Positions 13,800 to 60,178 are shown, counted from the stretch's first letter. The stretch: 64,000 bases of DNA from Candidatus Kaiserbacteria bacterium (GCA_016186765.1 JACPLD010000002.1:110386-174385); one strand, 5' to 3'. Translations and numbers: made by a program. Notes: generated from the letters alone by a model not told the origin.

Positions 13800-15530
13800 A
13801 TGTATATTTCGGATACTCATTTGAAATCATTCCTTGCCGATGCGGGGTTGATTTCACAGAAAGATTTCGACGCGGCAGAGTCGGAAGCAAAAGAAACAGG
13901 ACGGCCAGTGGGAGAGATACTTACATCGCACAACACGATTGGTGAGGACGAGCTGCGACGCACGTATGCATATATCTTGGGCATCCCGTTCGTCTCGCTC
14001 ACAGGCACGAAGATCAAATACGAAGTGCTCTCCCTCATACCCGAGCCGGTCGCGCGCCGCAACAACATCATTGCCTACAACCACCGTGGCGACGAACTTG
14101 AAGTCGCGATGCTCGACACCGACGACCTTGCCGCGATCGACTTCATCAAGAAGAAAACGCACCTAAAAATTCTCCCGCGTCTTACCGACGTTGCGTCTAT
14201 CAAGGCGGCGCTGAAGCAGTACCAACGAGGTCTCAAAGACAATTTAGGGGAGGTCATCCGCCGTGAGACCGAAGTCTTGGAGAAAGGGGAAGAAGACAAA
14301 GACTTGAAACAGGTTGCCGAAGGTGTGCCTGCAGTGCGCATCGTCGACACGCTGCTTCGCCACGCGAACGCACAGAACGCTTCCGACATTCACATCGAAC
14401 CGATGGAGGGGACGCTCCTCATTCGCTACCGCATCGACGGCATCTTGCACGATGCGATGGAGCTGCCAAAGACCGCGGCGCCGGCCATCACCGCGCGCAT
14501 CAAGGTTCTCTCAAATCTCCGTCTTGACGAGCATCGTCTTCCGCAGGACGGCCGCTTCGGCGCGGAGTACGGAGGCGAAAAGATATCGTTCCGCGTCTCC
14601 GTGCTGCCGACGTATTACGGCGAAAAGATCGTGATGCGCCTCTTGCGCGATTCGATCTCCGGCTTCACGCTCGAGTCGGTTGGCTTTCATGGGCTCGCGC
14701 TCGAGCGCATGCATGAGGCGATCCGCGCAACGACCGGCATGATCCTCGCGTGCGGCCCCACCGGTGCCGGCAAATCGACGACACTCTATACGCTCCTCGA
14801 TCTCTTGAATACACCGCACGTCAATATCTCCACGATCGAAGATCCGATCGAGTACCAAATGAAGCGCGTGAACCAAACACAGGTACGGCCCGAGATCGGC
14901 TTTACCTTTGCCAATGGGCTGCGCTCGCTCGTGAGACAAGACCCGGACATCATCATGGTCGGTGAGATCCGCGACAAGGAGACTGCCTCGCTTGCGATCA
15001 ACGCGGCACTCACCGGCCACCTCGTGCTCTCGACACTGCATACGAACTCCGCCGCGGGCGCCATTCCGCGCCTCTTGGACATGGGCGTGGAGCCGTTCCT
15101 TCTCGTCTCGACACTTCGCGTGTGCATAGGCCAGCGGCTCGTACGTGTTTTGACCGCTACCAAAGAGAAGTATGAGCTCTCGCGCGACGAGCAGACGCAT
15201 CTCGAAAAGAACATCGATGCTGGGGCGGTTTTGAAGTCGCTCAAAGAGGAGAGGGTCGTGCCGAACAATATGACGTGGAAGGACCTTCCCTTCTACCGGC
15301 CCAAAGACGGCCCGGCATCGCCGACAGCTTTCTCCGGACGCAAAGGTATTTATGAAGTACTTCCCGTTACGGCGACGGTGAAGGAGCTCGTCATGAAAGA
15401 CGCGACCTCTGACGACATCGAGAAGCAAGCGCGGAGTGAAGGCATGCTCACGATGGTCGAGGACGGCATTTTCAAAGCAGCACAAGGTCTCACCACGATC
15501 GAAGAAGTTTTGCGCGTCGTCACCGAGTAG
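13800..15530 (+). CDS. pilB: Type IV pilus assembly ATPase PilB (GspE family)
   Basis: Walker A GPTGAGKST, Asp/His boxes, T2SS-E N-terminal domain. Confidence 0.85.
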   Translation: MYISDTHLKSFLADAGLISQKDFDAAESEAKETGRPVGEILTSHNTIGEDELRRTYAYILGIPFVSLTGTKIKYEVLSLIPEPVARRNNIIAYNHRGDELEVAMLDTDDLAAIDFIKKKTHLKILPRLTDVASIKAALKQYQRGLKDNLGEVIRRETEVLEKGEEDKDLKQVAEGVPAVRIVDTLLRHANAQNASDIHIEPMEGTLLIRYRIDGILHDAMELPKTAAPAITARIKVLSNLRLDEHRLPQDGRFGAEYGGEKISFRVSVLPTYYGEKIVMRLLRDSISGFTLESVGFHGLALERMHEAIRATTGMILACGPTGAGKSTTLYTLLDLLNTPHVNISTIEDPIEYQMKRVNQTQVRPEIGFTFANGLRSLVRQDPDIIMVGEIRDKETASLAINAALTGHLVLSTLHTNSAAGAIPRLLDMGVEPFLLVSTLRVCIGQRLVRVLTATKEKYELSRDEQTHLEKNIDAGAVLKSLKEERVVPNNMTWKDLPFYRPKDGPASPTAFSGRKGIYEVLPVTATVKELVMKDATSDDIEKQARSEGMLTMVEDGIFKAAQGLTTIEEVLRVVTE

Positions 15531-15608
15531 CAGCGAGGCTTAGCCTGCCTGTCGGTAGGCAGGTGGAAAATCACGTTTTTCGTCGTTTTTGCCGCTATAC
15601 TTAGTTGA

Positions 15609-16829
15609 ATGGTTCGTTTTCATTACACTGCCGAGAGAGGGGGCGGCGAGACGTATACCGGTGTGGCGGAGGCACAGGACCGTTTTGAGATCTACGGGAT
15701 CGTGCGGCGTGAGGGCGGGAGGATCGTTTCGCTCTCTGAAGAGGGCGCAGGGAGCTGGCTCTCGCTGAAGTCACTCAACGGAATGATCACCGCGGTCAGA
15801 GAGTACGACAAAGTAGTCTTCGCACGCAATCTCGGTGCAATGCTTAGCGCCGGCCTATCGCTCTCCCGAGCGCTCTTAGTAATGGAGCGGCAAACGAAGA
15901 ATGCCAAACTCATGGCGATCGTCGTGGGGATCGCGAGCGACATTCGACGCGGCTCGAGCCTGCACGAGGCGCTCGCAAAGTTTCCCCGACACTTTTCGAA
16001 TCTCTTCGTTTCGATGGTTCGTGCGGGCGAGGAGGGCGGAAGCCTGCCGGAGGCGCTCTCTGCTATCTCCGAGCAGATGGAGCGGATGTATCAGCTCAAA
16101 AAAAAGATACGTGGCGCCTTGATTTATCCGGCGATCATCGTTGTTGCGATCATTGGCATCGGCACGTTGATGATGATCTACGTCGTGCCTACGCTCGCGC
16201 AAACCTTTGAGGAGATGAACGCACAGCTCCCGCTCTCGACACGTGCCATCATTGCGATCAGCGATTTCCTCGTCGAATACACGATGCTCGTGCTCGGTGG
16301 CGCACTCGGACTCTTCGCGCTCCTTTGGGTCGCGGCGCGCACCGCTCTCGGGAAGCGCATGCTTGACCTCTTCTTCATCCGTTTGCCCTTGATCGGGAGG
16401 ATGGTGCGCGAGGTCAACTCCGCCCGCACGGCGCGCACGCTCTCCTCACTCCTTTCTTCCGGGGTCGATGTTCTCGCCTCGCTCGAGATTACAAAGCAGG
16501 TTGTGCAGAATTCGTACTTCCGCGATGTCATCAAGGATGCCGGGATCAGTGTCGGCAAGGGAGAGCCGCTCTCCGCGGCATTTTCGCGGCGAGGCGATCT
16601 CTACCCGGCGTTTGTTCCCGAGATGATGGCGGTGGGGGAGGAGACTGGGGCGCTCTCGGAAATGCTGAAGCGCCTCGCCGCCTTCTACGAAGAGGAGGTG
16701 GATCGCAAGACGAAGGACATGTCCACGATCGTGGAGCCCTTCCTTATGATCGTGATCGGCGGCGCGGTGGGATTCTTTGCGGTTTCGATGATTACGCCCA
16801 TCTACTCACTTTCGCAGAATATAGGATGA
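15609..16829 (+). CDS. pilC: Type IV pilus platform protein PilC (GspF family)
   Basis: Two GspF repeats and polytopic membrane topology. Directly downstream of pilB. Confidence 0.85.
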   Translation: MVRFHYTAERGGGETYTGVAEAQDRFEIYGIVRREGGRIVSLSEEGAGSWLSLKSLNGMITAVREYDKVVFARNLGAMLSAGLSLSRALLVMERQTKNAKLMAIVVGIASDIRRGSSLHEALAKFPRHFSNLFVSMVRAGEEGGSLPEALSAISEQMERMYQLKKKIRGALIYPAIIVVAIIGIGTLMMIYVVPTLAQTFEEMNAQLPLSTRAIIAISDFLVEYTMLVLGGALGLFALLWVAARTALGKRMLDLFFIRLPLIGRMVREVNSARTARTLSSLLSSGVDVLASLEITKQVVQNSYFRDVIKDAGISVGKGEPLSAAFSRRGDLYPAFVPEMMAVGEETGALSEMLKRLAAFYEEEVDRKTKDMSTIVEPFLMIVIGGAVGFFAVSMITPIYSLSQNIG

Positions 16830-18653: not shown

Positions 18654-19246
18654 GTATGAAAAACAAACGAGGCCTCACGATGATCGAAACGGTGGTATGG
18701 ATCGCGGTGTTTATTGCAGCGATGACCGCAGTTGTCGTGACACTCATTTATTTCTACCGCACGAACGCCTACTCGATCGAGCAAGCGAGCGCTGTCACTT
18801 CGGCGCAGCGCGGGCTCGAGCAAATCGTGCGTACGATCCGCGAGGGCGCCTATTCAAGCGAGGGCGCCTTTCCGATAGTTTCGATCGCTGCGAACGATTT
18901 CATCTTTTACGCCGACATCGATGAGGACACGCTCATCGAGCGTGTGCACTACTACATTTCGGGTACTAATCTCGTGCGCGGAGTAATCGAGCCGACGGGA
19001 AATCCGCCGGCGTACACAGCTCTCGAGGCAACCTCTACGATCGCTGAGTATGTCCGCAATGCTGAGCAAGGAATCACGACATTCCGCTACTATGACGAGC
19101 TCGGCAGTGAGATCACAAACTACGCGAACTGGACAGCCGTGCGTTTTGTGAAAGTGACGCTCACGATCGATGTGAATACTGCGAAACTTCCTGATCGAGT
19201 GACGTTTGAGTCTTCGGCAGCGATCCGCAACCTCATCGGCAAATGA
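18650..19246 (+). CDS. Prepilin-type N-terminal cleavage/methylation domain protein (pseudopilin)
   Basis: Classic class-III signal KRG|LTMIETVVWIAVFIAA. ATGA overlap with the upstream gene. Confidence 0.65.
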   Translation: MSMKNKRGLTMIETVVWIAVFIAAMTAVVVTLIYFYRTNAYSIEQASAVTSAQRGLEQIVRTIREGAYSSEGAFPIVSIAANDFIFYADIDEDTLIERVHYYISGTNLVRGVIEPTGNPPAYTALEATSTIAEYVRNAEQGITTFRYYDELGSEITNYANWTAVRFVKVTLTIDVNTAKLPDRVTFESSAAIRNLIGK

Positions 19247-19277
19247 AGTATGGAGTATAGAGTATGGAGTATGGAGG
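19245..19277. repeat. Heptanucleotide tandem repeat (GRAGTAT)x4: GAAGTAT GGAGTAT AGAGTAT GGAGTAT GGAGG
   Basis: Seen in sequence. The same repeat family recurs at 27155..27182 and, reverse-complemented, at 60144..60178. Confidence 0.6.
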
Positions 19278-20752
19278 ATGAGAAAGCGAGTGAATTTTCC
19301 CTCTATAGCCTATACGCCATACGCGATACGCTTGGCCTCGCGAAGCCGCGCGCGGCTTCGCGAGGCGTCACTGTTTTCCTCATTCTCGGTTTTATGGGAG
19401 TCTTCGCCATCATTCTTGGAACCATCTCGAGCTACGTGCTCACCCAAGGGCGCTACGGTCGCGCACTCTACGCGCGCGAGGTTGCCCTCAACGTCGCGGA
19501 GTCCGGCCTCGAGTACTACCGCTGGTTCCTCGCACACAACCCCTCGATCATGGATAGCGGTATAGGGCTCGTAAGTCCGTACACCTATGCCGTGAACGAC
19601 CCCGAGGGCGGCTCACTCGGCTCTGCCGAAGTAACGGCATCGGTAAATCTCCAGTGCGGAGCCGTACAGTGGGCGGATATTGTTTCAAAGGGAACCGCGA
19701 GTGCCGATCCCGTCTTACCGCGCACACTGTCCGTGCGATACATGCAGCCTTCTGTTGCGGAATATTCGTATGTGGTGAACACGAACGTGTGGGCGGGCTC
19801 GAGCAGAACCATTCGTGGCCCATACCACGGGAACGGTGGCGTTAGAATGGATGCAACCCACAATGCCGACGTGACGAGTGCCGTTTCGACATGGAACTGC
19901 ACGTCGAGCTACAACTGCAACCCGTCGCAACCAAATGCGCCGGGAGTCGTCGGCACGGGCTCGAATCCCGCACTCTGGACGTATCCCGTTCCAAACATCA
20001 ACTTCGCCGCGATCGCGATCGATTTCACGGATCTCCAGACAAAAGCACAGACGCAAGGCGGCATCTACTACGGCCCTGCAAGCGGCAGTGTGAACAACCG
20101 CGGCTACCATCTCATTTTTAATGCAGCAGGCACGGTGACGATATACCGAGTGACGGAGACTGACGGCTTCGACAGCTACTCGACTCAGTACAACTGGGGA
20201 ACGGAGTACAGCGAGATCGACAACCAGACCTTGCTCGGGACATTTGCTATACCCTCAAGCTGCAGCCTCATGTTCTTCCAAGATCGGGTGTGGGTAGAAG
20301 GTACCGTCAATGGGAAGGTCACCGTTGTCGCAGCAACGCCTTCCGACGGCGCTACGGCGCCGGACGCGTATCTCAATAACAATATTCTTTACGCCGCCTA
20401 CGATGGCACCGATGGGCTCACGATCGTCGCCGAGCGAAATGTCCTCATACCGCTTGTCGTGCCCAATGTCATGGAGATCCATGGCATCTTTATCGCGCAA
20501 AGCGGGCACTACGGTCGCGACTACTTCTCGACGAGCGATCTTTCTTCGCAGTACGATCCGTACGTGACGCGCAGTCAGCTCACGACGGTGGGCACTGTCG
20601 TTTCAAACGGACGCACGGGCACCGCATGGAGCGACGGCACCGGATTCACGACGCGTCTCGATTACTATGACCAGCAGCTCGCCTTCTCACCGCCACCCTT
20701 TACGCCGGTTGCCTCAACTGACTACAAATACGCGCTGTGGCGCGAGCAATGA
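19250..20752 (+). CDS. Large hypothetical pilus-associated membrane-anchored protein
   Basis: N-terminal hydrophobic anchor (VTVFLILGFMGVFAIILG), ~450-aa extracellular part, co-oriented with the pilin genes. Start lies within the heptamer repeats; the ATG at 19271 is an alternative. Confidence 0.45.
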   Translation: MEYRVWSMEDEKASEFSLYSLYAIRDTLGLAKPRAASRGVTVFLILGFMGVFAIILGTISSYVLTQGRYGRALYAREVALNVAESGLEYYRWFLAHNPSIMDSGIGLVSPYTYAVNDPEGGSLGSAEVTASVNLQCGAVQWADIVSKGTASADPVLPRTLSVRYMQPSVAEYSYVVNTNVWAGSSRTIRGPYHGNGGVRMDATHNADVTSAVSTWNCTSSYNCNPSQPNAPGVVGTGSNPALWTYPVPNINFAAIAIDFTDLQTKAQTQGGIYYGPASGSVNNRGYHLIFNAAGTVTIYRVTETDGFDSYSTQYNWGTEYSEIDNQTLLGTFAIPSSCSLMFFQDRVWVEGTVNGKVTVVAATPSDGATAPDAYLNNNILYAAYDGTDGLTIVAERNVLIPLVVPNVMEIHGIFIAQSGHYGRDYFSTSDLSSQYDPYVTRSQLTTVGTVVSNGRTGTAWSDGTGFTTRLDYYDQQLAFSPPPFTPVASTDYKYALWREQ

Positions 20753-27198: not shown

Positions 27199-28875
27199 AT
27201 GGAGCCGATGCAACTTTCAGAACTCGTAAGGTCGCTTCTCGAAAAACGAGGTATCACGGATCCCGCCAGTATTTCAACGTTTCTCAATCCCGATTATGAA
27301 CGTGATACGCACTCACCGTTTCTGCTTGCGGGGATGGAGCGGACGGTTGCCCGTGTTCTCTCTGCTATTCGCAACGGCGAGCGAATAGCGATCTATGCGG
27401 ATTTCGATTGTGACGGCATCCCGGGTGCGGCGCTTATCTCGGATTTTTTCAAAAAGGTAGGATACTCGAATTTCGAGGTATACATCCCGCACCGCGACCG
27501 CGAGGGCTACGGGTTTCATACAGAGGCGATTGAGGAACTCACGCAAAGCGGTGTCTCCCTCATTATCACGGTCGATGTCGGGACGAATGCACTAGAAAGT
27601 GTTTCATTTGCAAAAGAGAAAGGTATCGATGTGATTGTTACCGATCACCATGAGCCGACGGGAGCGCTGCCAGATTGCATTGCAGTGCTCAACCCGAAAT
27701 TAGGCGAGTACCCATTTCGTGATCTCTGCGGTGCAGGGGTTGCTTTCAAGCTTGTTCAAGCACTCCTCCTCGAGGGAAAGAAACAGGGGCTCGAAGCTTT
27801 TGTGAAGGTTCCCGACGGCTGGGAGAAATGGCTTTTGGATCTCGTGGCGATCGCAACGGTCGCGGATCTCGTGCCGCTCGTCGGCGAAAATCGAACACTC
27901 GTGCACTTCGGTCTCAAAGTGCTTCGCAAATCGCCGCGAGCCGGGATCTCTGCGCTCTGCAATGCGCTCCGTATGCGAAAGAGCGACCTCACGGAGGAAG
28001 TGATCGCGTTCTCGATCGCGCCGCGCATTAATGCCGCTTCGCGTATGGACGAGCCCGAGTTTGCCTTCAGACTTCTTGTCACGACCGATCACCGCGAAGC
28101 GGAGAGAATCACGGCGCACCTCGAGGAGCTGAACGCTCGGAGAAAAACAGCAGTGGCGAGTGTTGTGAAGGCAGCAAAGCGCACGGCACGAACACGCTTT
28201 CGCTCCGACGAGCGCATTATCGTTCTGGGCTCTCCGGAGTGGAAACCGGCGTTATTGGGTCTTGCCGCGAATTCACTTGTGGAGGAGCGCGGGGGCGTTG
28301 TATGTCTCTGGGGGCGTGATGCAAGGGGGCGCATCAAGGGTTCGTGCCGCTCTGACGGCTCCATCTCGGTCGTGCAACTTTTCTCGAATGCACGGGACGC
28401 GTTCATCGAATTTGGTGGGCACGAGAGATCTGGGGGCTTTACGATTTCACATGAGCGCATACACACGCTCCACGAATCGCTCGCATCCGCAAGCAGCGCG
28501 CTCGCAGAGGCTCCACGTATGGAGGAGCAAACACATGATGCGCTCATTTCACTCCCCGAACTCACTGGATCGCTCTTTGAAGAAGTTTCGAAGCTCGCGC
28601 CATTCGGCGTCGGCAATCCAAAACCGCGTTTTCTCGTTTCTTCCATCACTGTTTCCTCTGTGCGCAAGTTTGGCCGCGAGAGCAACCATGTTGAGGTTCT
28701 TGTTTCATGTGAGCGGACCGGTATTTCCGCGCGAGCGTTCGATTTCTTCAATTCACCTGAAGATTTTATGCACGTTCCCAAGATCGGGAACTCCGTGCGT
28801 CTCCTCGCCACGGTAGAGAAAGACAATTTTCGTGGTGGCATTGCGCTCAGGCTCGTGGATGTTCTCGGTGCCTAG
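27199..28875 (+). CDS. recJ: Single-stranded-DNA-specific exonuclease RecJ
   Basis: DHH motifs (DFDCDGI, DHHEP) and DHHA1 region. Confidence 0.85.
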   Translation: MEPMQLSELVRSLLEKRGITDPASISTFLNPDYERDTHSPFLLAGMERTVARVLSAIRNGERIAIYADFDCDGIPGAALISDFFKKVGYSNFEVYIPHRDREGYGFHTEAIEELTQSGVSLIITVDVGTNALESVSFAKEKGIDVIVTDHHEPTGALPDCIAVLNPKLGEYPFRDLCGAGVAFKLVQALLLEGKKQGLEAFVKVPDGWEKWLLDLVAIATVADLVPLVGENRTLVHFGLKVLRKSPRAGISALCNALRMRKSDLTEEVIAFSIAPRINAASRMDEPEFAFRLLVTTDHREAERITAHLEELNARRKTAVASVVKAAKRTARTRFRSDERIIVLGSPEWKPALLGLAANSLVEERGGVVCLWGRDARGRIKGSCRSDGSISVVQLFSNARDAFIEFGGHERSGGFTISHERIHTLHESLASASSALAEAPRMEEQTHDALISLPELTGSLFEEVSKLAPFGVGNPKPRFLVSSITVSSVRKFGRESNHVEVLVSCERTGISARAFDFFNSPEDFMHVPKIGNSVRLLATVEKDNFRGGIALRLVDVLGA

Positions 28876-28894
28876 GCATGATACGATTAAATGC

Positions 28895-29518
28895 ATGAAT
28901 ATGTTTTCCGCAACCAAGTGTATTCGGTTCGGATGGACGAGTTTTCAGAAACGACCATGGTTCTTGGCCGGCATGACCGCTCTGATGCTCATTCTTTCGT
29001 GGGTGATCGGTGCTTTGATTGGAGGCATGTTCGGAAGTGGGAAAGGATTGGGGTTTCTGGGATTTCTCGCAAACGTTGCGCTCTCTACACTTCTCTCCAT
29101 GGGCTTTACGGCAGTCATGCTTCATTCGCACGATGCCCTCGAGAGTGTCACGATCGGTGAGCTTTGGCATCCGAAGCCGTTCTGGAAATTTCTTGGGGCA
29201 CAGTTTCTTGTCGGGCTCGTCGTATTGGTTGGCCTCCTGCTCCTCATCGTGCCAGGTGTGGTCGCGGCGCTTGCATTCATGTTTGTTCTCTACCTTGTTA
29301 TCGATAAGGAGCTTGGTCCGATCAAGGCAATGAAGGAAAGTGTGCGGATCACGCGCGGAAACCGCTTGCAGCTCTTGCTCCTTGCGCTCCTCGTATTTGT
29401 GCTCAACATCGTCGGCCTTGTCGCGCTTCTCGTTGGGCTTTTTGTTTCGATCCCCGTGACAACGCTTGCGATCGTGCACGCATATCGCGTTCTCCGGCAA
29501 CAAAAGGTTTCTGTCTAA
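28895..29518 (+). CDS. Hypothetical polytopic membrane protein (DUF975-like)
   Basis: 4-5 TM helices; no catalytic motif recognised. Confidence 0.45.
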   Translation: MNMFSATKCIRFGWTSFQKRPWFLAGMTALMLILSWVIGALIGGMFGSGKGLGFLGFLANVALSTLLSMGFTAVMLHSHDALESVTIGELWHPKPFWKFLGAQFLVGLVVLVGLLLLIVPGVVAALAFMFVLYLVIDKELGPIKAMKESVRITRGNRLQLLLLALLVFVLNIVGLVALLVGLFVSIPVTTLAIVHAYRVLRQQKVSV

Positions 29519-29925
29519 TGCAGAGCATAATCATTTATACCGATGGGGGTGCAAGAAATAATCCTGGCCCTGCTGGCGTGGGCATTGTAATTATTGATGG
29601 TTCAAAAAAAGTCGAACTCAAAAAGTACATCGGCGAACGAACGAACAACTGGGCTGAATACGAGGCGGTAATTATCGCGCTGACGGAGGCAAAGAAGCAG
29701 GGCTTGGCAAAGCGCGAGATCGAGATGCGAATGGATAGCGAGCTTATTCAGCGTCAATTGACCGACGAATACCAAGTGAAAGAAGAGAGCCTATGGCCGC
29801 AGTACATGAAAGTGCACAATCTCTTAGTAGTGCACTTTCCGAACATCCGGTTCGTGCATGTGCGGCGCGAAGAGAACAGCGAGGCAGACCGGCTTGTGAA
29901 CGAGGCGATAGACGAGCCCCGTTAG
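29518..29925 (+). CDS. rnhA: Ribonuclease HI
   Basis: IYTDGGARNNPGPAGVGIVI...NNWAEYEAVIIAL: RNase H catalytic DEDD signature. Confidence 0.85.
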   Translation: MQSIIIYTDGGARNNPGPAGVGIVIIDGSKKVELKKYIGERTNNWAEYEAVIIALTEAKKQGLAKREIEMRMDSELIQRQLTDEYQVKEESLWPQYMKVHNLLVVHFPNIRFVHVRREENSEADRLVNEAIDEPR

Positions 29926-29998
29926 AAAATACGCATCGTGCACCTACGGATAGGAACGTCTTTCGATTTCTAACGGGGCGAGGCATAATACGAGACGC

Positions 29999-30316
29999 AT
30001 GGTACGCGAGCAGATTAGAGGCACGCTTGTGGGATTCCTTGACTTCATTCGCGAGCGCGGGGTCATGGGTCTCGCCATCGGCTTTGTCTTGGGTGGCGCC
30101 GTCTCGCGCGTGACGACATCGTTTTCCGCCGACATCGTAAATCCGGCTCTCGCGTACCTCTTCGGCGGCACGGAGCGGCTCGGGGACATATTCATCGGGG
30201 AGGTCGCGGTAGGAAGGTTCCTCGCTGCCCTTCTCGATTTTCTCGTGCTTGCGCTCGTGGTGTACCTTATTTTTAGAGTGCTTAAGTTGGACAGCCTTGA
30301 TAAGAAGAGGGGATGA
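29999..30316 (+). CDS. mscL: Large-conductance mechanosensitive channel
   Basis: FLDFIRERGVMGLAIGFVLGGAVSRVTTSFSADIVNP matches the MscL TM1 signature. Confidence 0.85.
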   Translation: MVREQIRGTLVGFLDFIRERGVMGLAIGFVLGGAVSRVTTSFSADIVNPALAYLFGGTERLGDIFIGEVAVGRFLAALLDFLVLALVVYLIFRVLKLDSLDKKRG

Positions 30317-31806
30317 TGAGCACGCACGTTCTGTGGGCCATCGTTCTCGGATTTCTCGCCGGCATTTTTCTTCGATCGTTCGTACCGCTTGGGGTCTCGT
30401 TCGTGTCACTTCTCTCGTTGAGCGCCGTTGCAGTGCTCATACTTTCCGCTAGACAGAGGGCAATTCGAGGAGTTTTCGTAGCTGTTGCTCTGCTTGCGTG
30501 CGGTGCCGGGGTGCTTCGCATGGATGCTGCCGTGCTCGTTTCCGATCCTGCACTCGCATCGCGCGTCGGAGAAAAAGTGACGCTCGAAGGTGTCGTCTTC
30601 AACGAACCCGACGCTCGGGAGGCAAGTGTGCGAATTCCGCTTCGTCTCGAGACCGGAACGGGAATACTTGTCGTTGCTCCCGCGCATGCCGCTGTTCGCT
30701 ACGGCGATCATGTGCGAGCGGAGGGAGTGTTGCGCCTTCCTTCAGGCTTTGAGACTGGCTTGGGTCGGGAATTCAACTATCCCGCATATCTCGCCAAAGA
30801 CGGGATCGGCTACGAGCTTTCGTTCGCGGGGGTCGAGGTGGTCGGTCGGGGCGGCGCGAATCCCCTCAAGACATTCGCGATCGAGACAAAACGTTTATTC
30901 CTCGAGGGCCTTGGCCGCGCGCTTCCCGAGCCGGCGGCCGGTCTTGCGGGCGGAATAACGGCAGGAGACAAGCGAGGCTTGGGCGCGGAGCTTTCCGACG
31001 TATTCAGAACCGTTGGCTTGACGCACATCATCGTCCTCTCCGGCTACAACATCATGATTGTAGTTCTTGGGCTCGGCTGGCTCTTGCAGAAGCTGTACGC
31101 GCCTCGCGCGTGGAAGGTTCTTCTCGGTATCGGCATTGCGGTTCTCTTCGCGCTCATCACGGGGCTTGCCTCTGCCTCGGTGCGTGCCGCCGCAATGGCC
31201 TCGATCGCGCTCGTCGGAGCGTACACGGGCCGTCTCTACGTCGCAGCGCGCGCGCTTGGCGCAGTCGCCCTCGCGATGGTTGTGTGGAATCCCTATGTGC
31301 TCGCATTCGATCCCGGATTCCAACTCTCGGTCATCGCGACCGTCGGCCTCATTGCCTTCACGCCGCGTATCGCGCCGCGTCTCTCGTTCGTGACGACGAA
31401 GGGGAACCTCCGCGAGATTTTCGCGACGACCCTCTCCGCGCAGATCGCCGTGCTGCCGCTCCTTCTCTATCAGACCGGACAGGTCCCGCTCTATTCGCTG
31501 CCGGTGAATCTCCTCGCGCTCGTTGCGGTGCCGTGGGCGATGCTTTTCTCGGCAATTGCCGCACTCGGCGGGATCATCTTAGGGCCGCTTGCAACGTTCA
31601 TTAGTCTTCCCGCGTACGTACTCCTTTCGTACCTTGTCGATGTTGCGCAATTTTTCTCCGCGCTCCCGTATGCCTCGCTCGCGCTTCCTACCTTCAGCGC
31701 ATGGTGGCTCGTTCTTCTGTACGGAGGAATGCTGCTGTGGGTGCTGCGAAGAGAGAAGTTCAATGGGACCGAGATGAGAGTAAGCAGGGCAGCAGCAAGA
31801 GGTTGA
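30313..31806 (+). CDS. comEC: ComEC/Rec2 DNA internalization channel, N-terminal (DUF4131 + competence) part only
   Basis: Polytopic; GLTHIIVLSGYNIMIV competence-domain motif. No MBL domain in this ORF. Confidence 0.75.
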   Translation: MMSTHVLWAIVLGFLAGIFLRSFVPLGVSFVSLLSLSAVAVLILSARQRAIRGVFVAVALLACGAGVLRMDAAVLVSDPALASRVGEKVTLEGVVFNEPDAREASVRIPLRLETGTGILVVAPAHAAVRYGDHVRAEGVLRLPSGFETGLGREFNYPAYLAKDGIGYELSFAGVEVVGRGGANPLKTFAIETKRLFLEGLGRALPEPAAGLAGGITAGDKRGLGAELSDVFRTVGLTHIIVLSGYNIMIVVLGLGWLLQKLYAPRAWKVLLGIGIAVLFALITGLASASVRAAAMASIALVGAYTGRLYVAARALGAVALAMVVWNPYVLAFDPGFQLSVIATVGLIAFTPRIAPRLSFVTTKGNLREIFATTLSAQIAVLPLLLYQTGQVPLYSLPVNLLALVAVPWAMLFSAIAALGGIILGPLATFISLPAYVLLSYLVDVAQFFSALPYASLALPTFSAWWLVLLYGGMLLWVLRREKFNGTEMRVSRAAARG

Positions 31807-31854
31807 CGTCGGTGTTCGTAGGTGTACATTTTTGCTCTTTTGTTCTTCGCAACT

Positions 31855-31907
31855 CTCTGCCACAGCGAATAGCGCTTTCCTATAGAGCATTGTTCGCTGT
31901 GGCAGAG
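31855..31907. promoter_or_regulatory. Perfect 15-bp inverted repeat CTCTGCCACAGCGAA-N23-TTCGCTGTGGCAGAG
   Basis: Seen in sequence; 50 bp downstream of the comEC stop and upstream of a small SD-preceded ORF. Confidence 0.5.
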
Positions 31908-31951
31908 GAGGTCACAGTGTTCACTCACTAGAGCTAGAGAGAGGTGCTGAC

Positions 31952-32164
31952 ATGGCTAGAGATCACGCAGCTGATGATGTTCGACGACGACGTCGGATCG
32001 CCAGCGTCAAGAAGTCTCCTTCGAGGCCAACACCCGGCGAGGGGCTCAAGGGCTCCGAGCTTCCTAGAGGGGAGTTTAAGGGCCCCTATAGACAGGCTGA
32101 TGACGAGGAGAAGCTGTTCATTTCCCGCCGAGATGCCTACCCTGACGGCTACGGCAGCGAGTAA
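31952..32164 (+). CDS. Small basic hypothetical protein (70 aa)
   Basis: SD-like GAGAGAGG 7 nt upstream of the ATG. Followed by hairpin CGGCGCG-TTTCCA-CGCGCCG plus a T-tract at 32213..32240. Confidence 0.3.
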   Translation: MARDHAADDVRRRRRIASVKKSPSRPTPGEGLKGSELPRGEFKGPYRQADDEEKLFISRRDAYPDGYGSE

Positions 32165-32212
32165 CTGACCCGTCCGTCTACGGAAGTCTCACGTTGGGGA
32201 TCTCCCTACCTG

Positions 32213-32240
32213 CGGCGCGTTTCCACGCGCCGTTCTTTTA
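32213..32240 (+). terminator. Rho-independent terminator-like hairpin + T-tract (bidirectional position between the small ORF and sodA)
   Basis: CGGCGCGTTTCCACGCGCCG followed by TTCTTTTA. Confidence 0.45.
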
Positions 32241-32831
32241 TGCAATTTCTTCAAAGCGCTTCTCGATCACGCCCCAATTGAGATTTTTGAAGAACGCGTC
32301 GATGTATTTCCCTTTGCCTAGAGCTCCGTAATCAAGAATGAACGCGTGCTCCCACACATCGAGCGCAAGGATGATGGGGAGCGTCACGAAGTGTCCTTGA
32401 TGTTGCTCGCCAGTGAAACCGGTGAGAAGTTCACTCGCATTGGGATCGTAATAGAGAATGGCCCAGCCCGGTCCTCTCATATTGCCGATCATTGTCATGA
32501 CTTTCTCTGCTGTGTACGGGCGATAGGTACTCTCAAGTGCTTTCGCAAGAGCTCCCTCTGTGGTGAGCGGAATCGAACCGCCCTCAAACTGCGAGAAGTA
32601 ATACTCATGCAGGCGCATCCCGTCGAATTCAAAGCTGCGCCTGCGCATGAGCTCGGCAATCGCGTGCGCATATTTTTCTGAGTCTTCCGTTGCGAGTTTT
32701 GCGAGGAGTTTCGATATGGCATTGAAGTTTTTCACGTACCCTTCATACAGTCCAAGGTGTTGTTTCACCGACTCATCAGAGATTCCATCGAGTTTCGGGA
32801 GATCGAACCTTTTCGCTTCGTAGGTGTGCAT
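32238..32831 (-). CDS. sodA: Fe/Mn superoxide dismutase
   Basis: C-terminal DVWEHAFILDYG metal-ligand motif. ORF track extends to 33140; ATG (MHTYEAKRFDLPKL) at 32831 is preferred. Confidence 0.85.
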   Translation of the reverse strand: MHTYEAKRFDLPKLDGISDESVKQHLGLYEGYVKNFNAISKLLAKLATEDSEKYAHAIAELMRRRSFEFDGMRLHEYYFSQFEGGSIPLTTEGALAKALESTYRPYTAEKVMTMIGNMRGPGWAILYYDPNASELLTGFTGEQHQGHFVTLPIILALDVWEHAFILDYGALGKGKYIDAFFKNLNWGVIEKRFEEIA

Positions 32832-32874
32832 GCGCGCAGTATAGCATCGCGGTTCATGAAGGTAGAATGACGCA

Positions 32875-33729
32875 ATGCGAAGGAGCATGGTTGTCATCGG
32901 CACAACGCTCGCCGCCCTCGTGATCGCCACTACCCTGATCTGGTTCGCTATTTTTTGGGAGGAGAGACGTGGTCTTCTCGCTGTTTCGTTTCTCGATGTT
33001 GGGCAAGGCGATGCGATTTTCATCGAGAGCCCAAGCGGGCGACAAGCACTCGTCGATGGTGGTCCTGATAGAAGTGTTCTGCGCGAGCTTGGGCAAGTGA
33101 TGCCATGGTACGACCGCTCGATCGATGTCGTTATCGCCACTCATCCGGACGCCGATCACATAAGCGGACTCGTCGACGTACTTCAGCGTTACCGTGTCGA
33201 TTACATTTTTCAGCCAGGTGTCGAAAAAAATACTGGCCCTGCCGAATCCATGCTGCTTTCTGTCGCGAAGGAAGGAGCAGAAGAAATATATGCACGGCGC
33301 GCCCAGATACTTGACCTTGGCGAAGGTGCGTACCTCGAAATCCTGTTTCCGGATAGAGATGTATCGGGTGTCGAAACGAATACGGCTTCCATCGTTACTC
33401 GGCTCGTCTACGGCAATACTGCCTTCATGCTCACCGGCGATGCGCCAGAGGCCATCGAGAACTATCTTGTGCAGCTTGATGGAGAGGACCTGAGGGCAAA
33501 CGTCTTGAAAGTCGGCCATCACGGCTCCGATACATCCTCATCTGAGTTATTCGTTGGATTTGTATCCCCCGAATATGCCGTGTTTTCGCGTGGGTGTGAC
33601 AACCGCTATGGTCATCCTCACGAAGAAGTTGTCGCGCTCTTTAATCGCTTCGAGATTCAAACTTTTGATACGTGCGAGGATGGCACGATAACGTTCATGT
33701 CCGACGGAGCAAAAGTGGAAAAGCGCTAG
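32875..33729 (+). CDS. MBL-fold metallo-hydrolase, ComEC C-terminal-domain-like, with N-terminal TM
   Basis: VSFLDVGQGDAIFIE...VVIATHPDADHISGL...KVGHHGSDTSS, typical of the ComEC beta-lactamase domain. Confidence 0.7.
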   Translation: MRRSMVVIGTTLAALVIATTLIWFAIFWEERRGLLAVSFLDVGQGDAIFIESPSGRQALVDGGPDRSVLRELGQVMPWYDRSIDVVIATHPDADHISGLVDVLQRYRVDYIFQPGVEKNTGPAESMLLSVAKEGAEEIYARRAQILDLGEGAYLEILFPDRDVSGVETNTASIVTRLVYGNTAFMLTGDAPEAIENYLVQLDGEDLRANVLKVGHHGSDTSSSELFVGFVSPEYAVFSRGCDNRYGHPHEEVVALFNRFEIQTFDTCEDGTITFMSDGAKVEKR

Positions 33730-33968
33730 ACCAAACCGGCTGCTTTCAGTGTCTTGTACGCGCCTCGCTTTTTCATCGTCTTGAGGCCTTTTGCGGAAAC
33801 GTTGATGGTGATTTTCTTGCCGAGCTCAGGGATGAAAAGCGTCTTCTTCTGAAGATTCACCTGGCGGCGGCGCGTGCCGGTAGGATTGAACTTCGTCGCG
33901 CGCGTGCGATTCGAATAGCCGCCTCCCACGCGGCTCTTCTTCCCTGTGATTACACACTCTCTAGCCAT
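33726..33968 (-). CDS. rpmB: 50S ribosomal protein L28
   Basis: MARECVITGKKSRVGGGYSNRTRATKFNPTGTRRRQVNLQKK. Confidence 0.85.
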   Translation of the reverse strand: MARECVITGKKSRVGGGYSNRTRATKFNPTGTRRRQVNLQKKTLFIPELGKKITINVSAKGLKTMKKRGAYKTLKAAGLV

Positions 33969-34024
33969 AGTTGCGTCATAGTACACGGATGACTTCGGTT
34001 CGGCAAATCGGCTATACTCTAGAC

Positions 34025-34585
34025 ATGGGGAATCCGGAACAGCCCAAAAGTCCGTGGGCCCGTGGCGACTGGGCGGAAAGGGTCCTCAAAGAGAAGGACG
34101 GAGAGGGAACGGTTGAAGCATTGCGCGATGAGCACCGCCGCCGCACTTTGATCGACGAAGACAGAAAGGAACACCACAACGACATGAGAGCCGCGGCTGT
34201 TGCTGCTAGAGAGAATCCTGAGCAAGGCACGCGCCTTGTTCTTGAAGCGGGTAAGAAACACTCCCGTAGAATAATTGATATACACGGTGGGACGATTTGC
34301 GAGACATTCCGAGTGGAAAGAGACGCAGGCTTGATTCGCGTTGGTGGGAGAGAGTACTTTACGCACGCTGGGGCAAGAGATGAAGATTACATACGGCCGC
34401 GTTTTCTACAGTGCGTCTTGCCCAAGGAGGCAGTGGACGACGAAGGGTACGTGGTTGCTTTTACTCCCGATGACATACGGCGCGCCGCCAGAGAATTTCA
34501 AGAGAGGTGGCCTGAAGTCGTGTTCTCGTTCGACGAGGATCGTCAGCGCGGTCTATTTTCCTATACAGCGACCGTGGCCTCGTGA
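34025..34585 (+). CDS. Hypothetical protein
   Basis: Charged soluble protein with no recognised motifs. An alternative start at 33971 exists. Confidence 0.35.
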   Translation: MGNPEQPKSPWARGDWAERVLKEKDGEGTVEALRDEHRRRTLIDEDRKEHHNDMRAAAVAARENPEQGTRLVLEAGKKHSRRIIDIHGGTICETFRVERDAGLIRVGGREYFTHAGARDEDYIRPRFLQCVLPKEAVDDEGYVVAFTPDDIRRAAREFQERWPEVVFSFDEDRQRGLFSYTATVAS

Positions 34586-35299: not shown

Positions 35300-36463
35300 A
35301 TGGGAAGGAGGAGGCGCTCGAAGGTGAGGCGCGCCAAATGGTCTCGCTCGCAGATGTTCGTGCTCGGCCTCGCACTGGTATCCGCTGTTGCATTCGGCAC
35401 GCTCGGCATTTCTGCAGAGTCGCGAATGAGCCAGCTTGCCGCAACGGAAGCCACGGTTACGACTACTTCGCCGAAGGACTGTACGACCGCCATTAAAAAA
35501 GCGTTGCGAGGTATGGCCGACAATGACGGTCCGGCAACTGATACGGTGAGCGGCACGGGAACGGGTGGAGCTAGTGGGATCACCTCCAGTGAGTGCTTCG
35601 GAGCGGTTATTACGGAACAGGGGAAGCAGAAAAGGACCAGAATACTTTCGGGTAATCCGTACGGAGAGAAACTTACCGAACAAGATTACCGGTGCACGGG
35701 ACGGTCGGGCACGTCGCACGTGTCGTCGGAGGGCACGGTTTCTAATACAACCGCGAAGGACGGCGTGCCGCCACGTAAATGTGATACAGAAGTAACGAGT
35801 GAGAAACCCGGCGGTCAAGGGGGCAAGCCGGAGGGCAGCCAGGACGATAAGTGCCAGCAGAATCCTCAAGACCCGTCCTGCCAGGGAGGCGAGGGGAAGC
35901 CGCCCGAGCTCCCGAAGCCACCTGAGAAGAAGCCAGAGGAGCAGAAGCCCCAGGAGCAGCCGCAGCAGCAGGACTGTAATACCCTTACCGAAGAAGAAAA
36001 GAAGAAAAAGCCGGAGTGCCGAGGGCTGGAGGGGCAAGAACAGCTCAATCAGGCATTACAGGAGAAAGAGAATCAAAACTTACTTAGTGACGTCGCTTCT
36101 TTCGGCAAGGGCGCCTTGAGATACTTTGGTTCTTTGATGGGGGTTCGACCAGAAGCACCGGAAGCACTAACGGATGACAGACCCACAGCACCCCGTGCAG
36201 ACGCATCCTCATTGACAGAAGATGTCCAGCAAGCGCAGGTCAGAGCAGAGGCGAAAGCAGGGCCTGAAACTACGGTCGCACAGAACTCTTCTGGGCAGAG
36301 TGGTTATCAGGCGCCATCAACTGGATTTGCTGCTCCCAAAACCGCTGCTCCCGAAACGTCGCGCGTAGTAGGAGCATCGATGATTCCTCCAGCGGTCATT
36401 AGCGGCCTTCAGAGCGCGCTCTCGGGTATCGCCGGGTGGCTTCGCAGCACGTTTGGGCTCTGA
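35300..36463 (+). CDS. Hypothetical secreted/anchored low-complexity protein (P/E/Q/K-rich)
   Basis: N-terminal signal anchor, Cys pairs, PEQK-rich repeats. The antisense ORF 35213..36037 is judged a shadow. Confidence 0.45.
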   Translation: MGRRRRSKVRRAKWSRSQMFVLGLALVSAVAFGTLGISAESRMSQLAATEATVTTTSPKDCTTAIKKALRGMADNDGPATDTVSGTGTGGASGITSSECFGAVITEQGKQKRTRILSGNPYGEKLTEQDYRCTGRSGTSHVSSEGTVSNTTAKDGVPPRKCDTEVTSEKPGGQGGKPEGSQDDKCQQNPQDPSCQGGEGKPPELPKPPEKKPEEQKPQEQPQQQDCNTLTEEEKKKKPECRGLEGQEQLNQALQEKENQNLLSDVASFGKGALRYFGSLMGVRPEAPEALTDDRPTAPRADASSLTEDVQQAQVRAEAKAGPETTVAQNSSGQSGYQAPSTGFAAPKTAAPETSRVVGASMIPPAVISGLQSALSGIAGWLRSTFGL

Positions 36464-60123: not shown

Positions 60124-60143
60124 GCATTTCGCGCCAGTCCCGC

Positions 60144-60178
60144 CATACTGCATACTTCATACGCTATACTTATTCCAT
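60144..60178. repeat. Heptanucleotide repeat family, reverse orientation (revcomp AAGTAT AGCGTAT GAAGTAT GCAGTAT GG)
   Basis: Immediately upstream of the ATG of the 956-aa ATPase gene. Confidence 0.5.

What the first reader, a model, noticed from the sequence alone, without database searches (positions are those of the whole stretch)
30313..33729. ComEC split into two ORFs with a divergently oriented sodA inserted between the channel part and the MBL domain
The ORF 30313..31806 carries the DUF4131 and competence (ComEC_Rec2) membrane domains but no metallo-beta-lactamase domain. A separate ORF 32875..33729 encodes an N-terminally anchored MBL-fold protein with the ComEC-type H-x-H-x-DH motif. 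Between them lie a 15-bp perfect inverted repeat, a small SD-preceded ORF, a terminator and a minus-strand Fe/Mn superoxide dismutase.

Either ComEC has been fissioned, possibly with the nuclease domain now acting in trans, or an insertion disrupted an ancestral fused gene. This matters for how DNA uptake works together with the adjacent type IV pilus machinery.
Basis: partly seen in the sequence, partly recalled or inferred. Interest (0 to 1): 0.5.

Follow-up and report, generated by a model that had tools for sequence, protein, structure and literature searches.

The report
ComEC split into two conserved genes
In this ultra-small (CPR/Patescibacteria) bacterium the DNA-uptake protein ComEC is encoded as two genes, a membrane channel and a separately anchored nuclease, with a superoxide dismutase gene between them, and this layout is old and conserved across a whole bacterial class rather than being recent damage.

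Summary
ORF 30313..31806 carries DUF4131 plus the Competence channel domain. ORF 32875..33729 carries one transmembrane helix plus a ComEC-type metallo-beta-lactamase (MBL) nuclease domain. The two ORFs tile full-length ComEC end to end, and the break falls in the cytoplasmic loop before the last transmembrane helix (TM11). One detail is wrong: motif II is H-P-D-A-D-H, the ComEC-specific HxDxDH, not HxHxDH. The pilus genes lie about 13.5 kb away, so they are not adjacent.

The split is not a local accident. In the 80 closest species-representative genomes, all Paceibacteria/Parcubacteria lineages, no ComEC is fused. Fifty-nine carry both halves on one strand: 46 with an antisense sodA between them, 8 with a DedA-like gene instead, and 5 with abutting or overlapping but still separate ORFs. 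The nuclease half keeps its catalytic residues and is better conserved than the channel half.

The best reading is an ancient, fixed gene fission that gives a two-subunit ComEC with its nuclease supplied in trans. [quoted passage not shown] I found no description of the separate nuclease gene. This is a new variant of a known kind and of moderate interest.

The parts
30313..31806 (+). comEC N-terminal gene: 3 TM + OB fold (DUF4131) + Competence channel domain, about TM1-TM10, ending in a short basic cytoplasmic tail
   Evidence: Pfam DUF4131 and Competence. aa 9-476 align to aa 8-488 of full-length ComEC 30bt_A. aa 65-494 align to aa 59-513 of the fused P0224. About 10 hydrophobic segments by a crude hydropathy scan. 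The start overlaps the mscL stop as ATGA.
31855..31907 (+). Long hairpin (15-bp perfect, 22-nt imperfect arms) 50 nt after the comEC-N stop; possibly a transcript end or stabiliser. No T-run follows it.
   Evidence: No Rfam family at gathering threshold. It lies in a spacer that is not homologous in relatives.
31952..32164 (+). 70-aa ORF, low-complexity and charged; doubtful, strain-specific
   Evidence: No Pfam hit. No tblastn hit in 85 related loci. Relatives carry unrelated small ORFs at this place.
32212..32241 (+). Intrinsic-terminator-like hairpin plus T-tract, facing the 3' end of sodA. It would stop plus-strand read-through from the comEC-N operon before it runs antisense into sodA.
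   Evidence: 9-pair stem, 7 GC pairs, TCTTTTAT. The function is inferred.
32238..32831 (-). sodA-like Fe/Mn superoxide dismutase (197 aa), antisense to both comEC halves
   Evidence: Pfam Sod_Fe_C. Full-length alignment to solved Fe/Mn SODs, best 1coj at E 1e-21. The four metal ligands and Tyr34 are invariant in 60 of 60 orthologues.
32832..32874 (.). 43-nt divergent intergenic region with back-to-back -10-like hexamers. TAGAAT (32863-32868) lies 6 nt before the MBL ATG. TATACT on the minus strand (32838-32843) lies 6 nt before the sodA ATG. Putative leaderless promoters.
   Evidence: GAAGGTAGAATGA is conserved in L001, L008, L009, L014 and L086 while the rest of the spacer differs. Promoter function is inferred, not shown.
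32875..33729 (+). comEC C-terminal gene: TM11-equivalent signal-anchor helix (aa about 3-29) plus ComEC-type MBL nuclease domain with motifs GQGD, HPDADH, TN, TGD and GHHGS
   Evidence: NCBIfam TIGR00361 positions 419-663. aa 12-280 align to aa 514-790 of 30bt_A. aa 4-284 align to aa 522-804 of P0224 at 44% identity. AF2 model pLDDT 91 with helix 3-29. Best fold match is the ComEC beta-lactamase-like domain 9ic4, E 1.5e-26, TM 0.80. Motif residues are invariant in 55 relatives.
27199..30316 (+). Upstream co-oriented genes that travel with comEC-N: recJ (27199..28875), DUF975 membrane protein (28832..29518), RNase H (29518..29925), mscL (29999..30316)
   Evidence: Pfam. RecJ-RNaseH-ComEC-N synteny is conserved in most related loci.
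33726..33986 (-). rpmB (ribosomal protein L28), convergent with the MBL gene and overlapping its stop by 4 nt. The MBL gene is therefore boxed in by two minus-strand genes and must have its own promoter.
   Evidence: L28 follows the MBL gene in 68 of 80 loci.

Best explanation
This is an ancient, fixed fission of comEC in a Candidatus Kaiserbacteria-like genome (class Paceibacteria, Patescibacteria/CPR).

Gene 1 encodes the OB fold plus the DNA channel, about TM1-TM10. Gene 2 encodes the last transmembrane helix (TM11) followed by the Mn-type MBL nuclease domain. The break sits in the short cytoplasmic loop between TM10 and TM11.

The N-terminus of gene 2 is basic (MRRS) and is followed by one hydrophobic helix. 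It should therefore insert N-in/C-out and place the nuclease outside the membrane, where the ComEC C-terminal domain normally sits.

The most likely mechanism is a two-subunit ComEC. The TM11 helix and the contact between the nuclease and the OB fold re-assemble the complex non-covalently. The trans-encoded nuclease degrades the non-transported strand while the channel imports the other strand.

The antisense sodA between the halves is a passenger gene that has sat at this position since early in the clade. Its 5' region and the MBL gene share a 43-nt divergent promoter region.

Shown: homology, tiling, conservation, synteny, intact catalytic motifs. Inferred: physical assembly, nuclease activity, role in DNA uptake, promoter use.
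For: **1. The halves tile fused ComEC without overlap.**
- Against the solved full-length ComEC 30bt_A (801 aa), the N half covers aa 8-488 and the C half covers aa 514-790.
- Against the fused P0224 (807 aa), they cover aa 59-513 and aa 522-804.

**2. The C half is ComEC-type.**
- All six PDB sequence hits are ComEC.
- The best NCBIfam family is ComEC_Rec2.
- The AF2 model (pLDDT 91) best matches the ComEC beta-lactamase-like domain 9ic4 at E 1.5e-26. The next match (Pce) is at 1e-17, ElaC at 1e-10 and RNase J at 3e-8.

**3. The catalytic motifs are intact.** HPDADH, TGD, GHHGS and GHP are invariant in 55 relatives.

**4. Conservation is wide.**
- There are more than 120 stand-alone homologues of about 284 aa at 61-81% identity.
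- About 140 of the best 150 cluster representatives are stand-alone proteins of 270-310 aa.
- Of the 80 nearest GTDB species, 0 are fused and 59 have both halves on one strand within 8 kb.

**5. The C half is under selection.** Against L001 it is 75% identical, compared with 64% for ComEC-N and 68% for SOD.

**6. Lineages without sodA stay split.** In the five such lineages the two ORFs overlap by 8-26 nt or abut. This is the pattern of translationally coupled subunits.

**7. [quoted passage not shown] That domain is positioned by a small conserved contact with the OB fold (PMC13539106).
Against: - No direct evidence shows that the two proteins bind each other or that either is expressed.
- The two genes are in different transcription units here, so their stoichiometry is not coupled.
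- In 8 of 67 assessable relatives, no ComEC-N lies within the held upstream flank (3.8-8 kb) of the MBL gene. The nuclease can therefore live apart from the channel gene.
- Some family members (P0213, P0267) have lost the metal-binding motifs.
- I could not scan whole genomes for a second, complete ComEC.
- The direction of the event (fission versus pre-fusion state) rests on parsimony, because the tree was rooted with the fused proteins.
Confidence: 0.75

Rival explanations
1. The anchored MBL protein has become an independent surface nuclease, for example to digest host or environmental DNA for nucleotide scavenging. It no longer works with the ComEC channel, and the linkage is only a historical remnant.
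For: It has its own transcription unit, boxed in by two minus-strand genes. Eight relatives have the MBL gene without ComEC-N within the held upstream flank (3.8-8 kb). CPR bacteria are thought to scavenge nucleotides (PMC6744442). S. pneumoniae uses a separate membrane nuclease, EndA (PMC8579336).
Against: The TM11-equivalent helix is retained. Same-strand synteny with ComEC-N holds in 59 of 67 assessable genomes. The ORFs overlap where sodA is missing. Catalytically degenerate members are retained, which suggests a structural role next to the channel, as proposed for the S. pneumoniae C-terminal domain.
Confidence: 0.13
2. The two-gene state is the primitive condition. A separate anchored MBL nuclease and a DUF4131-Competence channel pre-date the fused ComEC, so Paceibacteria never had the fusion.
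For: Pimentel and Zhang 2018 infer a Competence-only ancestor with repeated gains of Lactamase_B (PMC6299819). My tree was rooted on the fused proteins, so it does not test direction.
Against: Fused ComEC occurs across many phyla, whereas the split form was found only in one class of a derived, genome-reduced lineage. The C half starts exactly at the helix homologous to TM11 of the fused protein, and gene order and strand match the domain order. The nearest fused relatives are 44-47% identical in the MBL part.
Confidence: 0.08
3. A recent insertion of sodA broke comEC, and the two ORFs are decaying remnants (pseudogene fragments).
For: A foreign-looking block with variable content lies between the halves. 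A 15-nt direct repeat flanks it.
Against: Both ORFs are intact and conserved in dozens of species down to 43% identity, with catalytic residues invariant. The repeat occurs in 4% of shuffles and is absent from relatives.
Confidence: 0.02
4. The MBL ORF is an unrelated MBL hydrolase (beta-lactamase, RNase J/ElaC, Avs1a-like defence nuclease) that lies near comEC by chance.
For: There are weaker NCBIfam hits to blaAHM (78.9 bits, cut-off 590) and Avs1a (58 bits, cut-off 420).
Against: The best sequence and fold matches are all ComEC. The ORF has no beta-CASP domain, is colinear with fused ComEC including TM11, and shows conserved synteny.
Confidence: 0.02

Closest known systems
Full-length ComEC/Rec2 (e.g. 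Moorella/Neomoorella carbonis ComEC cryo-EM structure, PDB 30bt; B. subtilis ComEC)
   Same: It has the same three modules in the same order: OB fold/DUF4131, Competence channel, TM11, then the MBL nuclease. The ComEC-specific metal-ligand pattern is also the same (HxDxDH in motif II, Asn in motif III). The predicted topology places the OB fold and the nuclease outside the membrane.
   Different: It is encoded as two polypeptides cut in the TM10-TM11 cytoplasmic loop. The halves lie in separate transcription units here, with an antisense sodA between them. Neither half reaches the TIGR00361 equivalog cut-off on its own.
ComEC proteins scored as lacking the nuclease domain ('DC' profile of Pimentel and Zhang 2018; CPR ComEC family fam000603 of Meheust et al. 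2019)
   Same: The channel gene alone is exactly such a DUF4131+Competence protein. The literature states that the MBL fusion is essentially absent from CPR.
   Different: Here the supposedly missing nuclease is present as a neighbouring gene. At least in Paceibacteria, 'lacks the C-terminal domain' is an artefact of scoring single proteins.
EndA of Streptococcus pneumoniae (separate membrane-anchored nuclease that degrades the non-transforming strand)
   Same: The working principle is the same: a membrane-anchored extracellular nuclease, encoded apart from the channel, would act on incoming DNA in trans.
   Different: EndA is not an MBL-fold protein and is not derived from ComEC. The protein here is the ComEC C-terminal domain itself, with its own transmembrane helix.

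Membership tests
ComEC/Rec2 (TIGR00361; DUF4131 + Competence + Lactamase_B) | N-terminal OB-fold module (DUF4131, PF13567) | tested here: met
   aa 24-176 of ORF 30313..31806, E 3e-16, 59.9 bits against a cut-off of 31.6
ComEC/Rec2 (TIGR00361; DUF4131 + Competence + Lactamase_B) | Competence transmembrane channel domain (PF03772) | tested here: met
   aa 216-482, E 1e-48, 166 bits against a cut-off of 23. It aligns to solved ComEC.
ComEC/Rec2 (TIGR00361; DUF4131 + Competence + Lactamase_B) | C-terminal MBL nuclease domain with ComEC-type metal ligands (motif II HxDxDH, motif III Asn, bridging Asp, GHHGS) | tested here: met
   It is present, but on the second ORF. Motifs HPDADH, ETNTAS, TGD and GHHGS, matching the pattern described in PMC8579336. 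The best fold match is the ComEC domain 9ic4.
ComEC/Rec2 (TIGR00361; DUF4131 + Competence + Lactamase_B) | All modules on one polypeptide that reaches the equivalog score | tested here: not met
   There are two ORFs separated by 1,068 nt and an antisense gene. TIGR00361 scores are 62.3 and 120 bits against a cut-off of 190.05.
ComEC/Rec2 (TIGR00361; DUF4131 + Competence + Lactamase_B) | Required for DNA import / natural transformation | not testable with these tools
   The organism is uncultured. The only experimental CPR evidence is for Saccharibacteria comEC (PMC10633639).
Fe/Mn superoxide dismutase | Two-domain SOD fold with the four metal ligands (His26, His73, Asp156, His160 in E. coli SodB numbering) and Tyr34 | tested here: met
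   Pfam Sod_Fe_C at E 1e-16. The N-terminal domain is not detected by Pfam at E<=0.01, but full-length alignments to solved SODs exist. The ligands and Tyr34 are invariant in 60 of 60 orthologues.
RNase J / RNase Z (ElaC) type MBL nucleases | beta-CASP or exosite insertion; closest sequence or fold neighbours in that family | tested here: not met
   No such Pfam or NCBIfam hit. ElaC and RNase J structures rank at E 1e-10 and 3e-8, against 1.5e-26 for ComEC.
Class B metallo-beta-lactamases | Score above the family cut-off; HxHxDH zinc site | tested here: not met
   blaAHM scores 78.9 bits against a cut-off of 590. Motif II is HxDxDH.

The most novel reading that the evidence does not exclude
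Trans-encoded, membrane-anchored ComEC nuclease subunits may be a general answer to the open question of how the non-transforming strand is degraded by ComEC proteins that 'lack' the C-terminal domain.

In addition, in Paceibacteria the nuclease gene may be deliberately uncoupled from the channel operon. It would instead be wired to sodA through a shared 43-nt bidirectional, leaderless promoter. Expression of the Mn-dependent nuclease would then follow oxidative-stress or metal status rather than expression of the channel.
Probability: 0.15. Interest if true: 0.7.

Novelty: new variant of a known kind. Interest (0 to 1): 0.5.

Why it matters
**What the literature currently says.** Surveys of ComEC score domains within one protein. 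They conclude that about half of all ComECs, and nearly all CPR ComECs, lack the nuclease domain (PMC6299819; PMC6744442). Silale et al. call strand degradation in such organisms an open question (PMC8579336).

**What this locus adds.** For a whole class of Patescibacteria the nuclease is not missing. It is encoded next door as its own anchored subunit.

**Why that is useful.**
- It is a natural experiment showing that a covalent link between channel and nuclease is dispensable.
- It marks the TM10-TM11 loop as a permissive split site for structural and genetic work on ComEC.
- It cautions that competence-gene inventories of uncultured bacteria should look for the two-gene form.

It does not change the basic picture of how DNA uptake works.

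Tried and rejected
- **Rfam scan.** A gathering-threshold scan of the whole window found only four tRNAs. Nothing matched the hairpin or the spacers.
- **Small ORF 31952..32164.** No Pfam hit and no homologue in 85 loci, so I treat it as doubtful.
- **Spacer proteins of close relatives** (183-aa, CBS, other small ORFs). None has any counterpart in the window, and the DNA aligns only across sodA and the start of the MBL gene. The spacer is therefore hypervariable, not a decayed gene.
- **The 15-nt direct repeat** (31815 / 32817) as a possible insertion footprint. A repeat this good appears in 12 of 300 shuffles, and relatives do not have one. Probably chance.
- **A possibly missing first metal ligand in SOD.** The pairwise HMMER alignment suggested this. 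A 61-sequence alignment places an invariant His there, so I rejected the idea.
- **Adjacent halves without sodA as the ancestral state.** Bootstrapped NJ nests two such lineages inside sodA-bearing clades at 92% and 86%. Adjacency therefore looks secondary, although the backbone is unresolved.
- **Literature.** Four full-text searches and reading of eleven papers found no description of a split ComEC.


Full report
**What is there.** The window looks like part of a Candidatus Kaiserbacteria genome (class Paceibacteria, Patescibacteria/CPR). The closest named proteins come from Kaiserbacteria metagenome-assembled genomes at 75-81% identity.

ORF 30313..31806 (497 aa) carries DUF4131 at aa 24-176 and the Competence domain at aa 216-482, with nothing after them. 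ORF 32875..33729 (284 aa) carries one N-terminal hydrophobic helix and a metallo-beta-lactamase (MBL) domain. Its best curated family match is the C-terminal third of ComEC_Rec2: TIGR00361 positions 419-663 of 663, E 8e-35.

Between the two ORFs, in order, lie:
- a long hairpin at 31855-31907, with 15-bp perfect arms;
- a 70-aa ORF at 31952..32164;
- a terminator-like hairpin with a T-tract at 32212-32241;
- a minus-strand Fe/Mn superoxide dismutase.

The SOD start is the ATG at 32831, so the gene is 32238..32831 and encodes 197 aa. The four metal ligands and Tyr34 are invariant in 60 orthologues.

Two details of the finding need correcting. Motif II reads H-P-D-A-D-H, the ComEC-specific HxDxDH (PMC8579336), not HxHxDH. 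The pilus genes pilB and pilC (13800..16829) lie about 13.5 kb away, behind glycolysis, peptidoglycan-binding, HIT and recJ genes.

**The two ORFs are the two ends of one ComEC.** Against the solved full-length ComEC 30bt_A (801 aa), the first ORF (aa 9-476) aligns to residues 8-488. The second ORF (aa 12-280) aligns to residues 514-790.

Against a closer fused relative, P0224 (807 aa), the pieces cover residues 59-513 and 522-804. They tile the fused protein with an eight-residue gap and no overlap.

The cryo-EM paper on full-length ComEC describes eleven transmembrane helices and a short cytoplasmic helix between TM10 and TM11. It finds TM10 and TM11 at the periphery, a mobile TM11, and a nuclease domain on a flexible linker. 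That domain is held in place by a small conserved contact with the OB fold (PMC13539106). The break therefore falls in the cytoplasmic TM10-TM11 loop, and the second gene encodes TM11 plus the nuclease. A crude hydropathy scan agrees, finding about ten hydrophobic segments in the first ORF and one in the second.

The N-terminus of the second ORF (MRRS, then a hydrophobic helix) fits an N-in/C-out anchor. That would put the nuclease outside the membrane, as in ComEC. This topology is an inference from the positive-inside rule.

It does not.
- All six PDB sequence matches at E<=0.001 are ComEC.
- An AlphaFold2 model built on 55 relatives has mean pLDDT 91.3 and a helix at aa 3-29.
- That model best matches the ComEC beta-lactamase-like domain of Moorella glycerini (9ic4), at E 1.5e-26, TM 0.80/0.85 and rmsd 2.5 A.
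- The phosphorylcholine esterase Pce comes next at 1e-17. ElaC is at 1e-10 and RNase J at 3e-8.
- The metal-binding residues are invariant in those 55 relatives.

**The split is old and widespread.** The MBL ORF has more than 120 homologues of about 284 aa at 61-81% identity. Among the best 150 cluster representatives from 1.8 billion proteins, about 140 are stand-alone proteins of 270-310 aa. Only five are fused ComECs of 787-818 aa, at 44-47% identity. Cluster members of two of the five sit on contigs of about 3.2-3.3 Mb, which are presumably non-CPR genomes.

A scan of one genome per GTDB species returned 80 loci. They come from Kaiser-, Nomura-, Wolfe-, Taylor-, Zambryski-, Yonath-, Campbell-, Vogel- and Lloydbacteria and unnamed Paceibacterota. 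I placed the window's genes on these loci with tblastn and checked reading frames.

| Arrangement in the 80 loci | Number |
|---|---|
| Fused ComEC | 0 |
| Both halves on one strand within 8 kb | 59 |
| - antisense SOD between the halves | 46 (SOD directly beside the MBL gene in 34) |
| - about 196-aa minus-strand DedA-like membrane protein instead of SOD | 8 |
| - nothing between the halves, but still two ORFs | 5 |
| At least 3 kb of upstream flank but no ComEC-N hit | 8 |
| Upstream flank too short to judge | 13 |

In the five loci with nothing between the halves, the ORFs overlap by 26, 26, 17 or 8 nt, or are 1 nt apart. The wider order RecJ - RNase H - ComEC-N - SOD(-) - MBL - L28(-) - M50 protease - S12 is conserved.

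The MBL half is not decaying. Against L001 it is 75% identical, compared with 64% for ComEC-N and 68% for SOD.

**Order of events.** I built a neighbour-joining tree of concatenated halves (56 taxa, 747 columns, 200 bootstraps). It places the no-SOD locus L067 as sister to two SOD-bearing loci at 92%. It places the no-SOD group L018/L029/L034 as sister to SOD-bearing L030 at 86%. Five of the eight no-SOD loci with another gene between the halves form a clade at 100%.

The SOD-between state therefore looks ancestral for the sampled clade. SOD would then have been lost at least twice and replaced at least once, and the halves never re-fused. The deep backbone is unresolved, and the tree was rooted on the fused proteins. 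It cannot say whether the SOD insertion caused the fission or followed it. It also cannot formally exclude that the two-gene state is primitive. Parsimony favours fission, because fused ComEC is widespread while the split form sits in one class of a reduced lineage.

**Expression signals (inference only).** comEC-N overlaps the mscL stop (ATGA) and follows recJ, a DUF975 gene and the RNase H gene on the same strand, so it is probably the last gene of that operon. The hairpin and the T-tract terminator lie downstream and would stop read-through into the antisense sodA.

The MBL gene is boxed in by sodA (divergent, 43 nt away) and rpmB (convergent, 4-nt overlap). It therefore needs its own promoter. 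A TAGAAT hexamer ends 6 nt before its ATG, and a TATACT on the other strand ends 6 nt before the sodA ATG. The string GAAGGTAGAATGA is kept in relatives L001, L008, L009, L014 and L086, although the rest of the spacer differs.

This suggests back-to-back leaderless promoters. In the AT-rich relatives such hexamers are expected by chance, so the broader count (34 of 44 loci) is weak evidence.

**The variable spacer.** The stretch between the comEC-N stop and the sodA stop shares no homology with relatives, even one at 81% MBL identity. Those relatives carry unrelated small ORFs there. The window's 70-aa ORF has no homologue in any locus. The hairpin has no Rfam match at gathering threshold.

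**What is known.** Meheust et al. 2019 report that ComEC is present in 86% of CPR genomes. [quoted passage not shown] Pimentel and Zhang 2018 scored domains only within Competence-containing proteins (PMC6299819). Silale et al. 2021 note that almost half of ComECs lack the C-terminal domain and call strand degradation there an open question (PMC8579336).

A 2023 survey of MBL-like genes in CPR does not mention competence (PMC10459063). None of the eleven papers read describes a separately encoded ComEC nuclease. IMG's automatic annotation already labels some of these 284-aa proteins 'competence protein ComEC', while NCBI calls them 'MBL fold metallo-hydrolase'. The homology is thus implicit in databases, but the two-gene architecture and its conservation appear undescribed in the literature I could search. 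That library covers open-access papers only.

**Verdict and limits.** This is a fixed two-gene ComEC, not a broken one. I put 0.75 on the two-subunit, nuclease-in-trans mechanism.

Three things are not shown:
- that the products interact;
- that the nuclease is active;
- that these genomes lack another ComEC.

The Meheust et al. count of six fused cases in CPR argues against a second ComEC. Gene fission is a familiar process, so this is a new variant of a known system and of moderate interest.

Noticed in passing
window 32832-32874; also L001, L008, L009, L014, L086: -10-like hexamers end 6 nt before both divergent start codons: TAGAAT for the MBL gene, TATACT for sodA. Neither has a Shine-Dalgarno sequence. 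GAAGGTAGAATGA is conserved in relatives while the rest of the spacer differs. This suggests back-to-back leaderless transcripts.
   Followed up: partly
window 31815-31829 and 32817-32831: A 15-nt direct repeat (14 of 15 identical) flanks the block made of the hairpin, small ORF, terminator and sodA. The second copy is the first five codons of sodA. A repeat this good appears in 12 of 300 shuffles and is not present in relatives, so it is probably chance.
   Followed up: yes
L040, L043, L045, L049, L055, L061, L065 (between the ComEC-N and MBL genes): In a Yonathbacteria-like clade the slot between the two comEC halves holds a minus-strand DedA/VTT-like membrane protein of about 196 aa instead of SOD. 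L040 and L045 carry additional ORFs in that slot. L042 also lacks SOD but carries different ORFs there.
   Followed up: partly
P0213 and P0267 (alignment A1): Some stand-alone family members have lost the metal-binding motifs: HPDADH has become NTDAGN or SPKKEY, and GHHGS has become GYHGA or ANPNS. They are probably catalytically dead yet retained, like the S. pneumoniae ComEC C-terminal domain.
   Followed up: no
window 31807-32237; L001 4377-5329; L086 517-1219: The stretch between the comEC-N stop and the sodA stop is hypervariable. Even relatives at 75-81% MBL identity carry completely unrelated small ORFs there (CBS-domain protein, hypothetical proteins).
   Followed up: yes
P0146 (721 aa), P0155 (440 aa), P0164 (380 aa), P0231 (369 aa): A few close relatives of the MBL half have other architectures. 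In P0146 the MBL part is at the N-terminus of a 721-aa protein. The others have N-terminal extensions of 100-170 aa.
   Followed up: no
window 58849-63047: purD (phosphoribosylglycinamide synthetase, a de novo purine synthesis enzyme) lies next to a 956-aa TraG/VirD4-like coupling protein. The purine gene is notable in a lineage usually said to lack nucleotide synthesis.
   Followed up: no
window 16842-20752: Three ORFs directly follow pilB and pilC: 603 aa with CarboxypepD_reg and PEGA domains, then 198 aa and 500 aa with no Pfam hit. They may be lineage-specific pilus or surface components.
   Followed up: no
window 33971-34585 and 35300-36463: Two ORFs without Pfam hits lie near the locus. 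The 204-aa one has a 40% identical counterpart in L010. The 387-aa one is a low-complexity, Pro/Glu/Lys-rich protein.
   Followed up: no
L006, L010, L011, L014 and many other loci: Many GTDB records titled 'uncultured Candidatus Saccharibacteria bacterium' share the Paceibacteria-type synteny and group with Kaiserbacteria-like sequences in the tree. Those record titles look generic rather than taxonomically informative.
   Followed up: no
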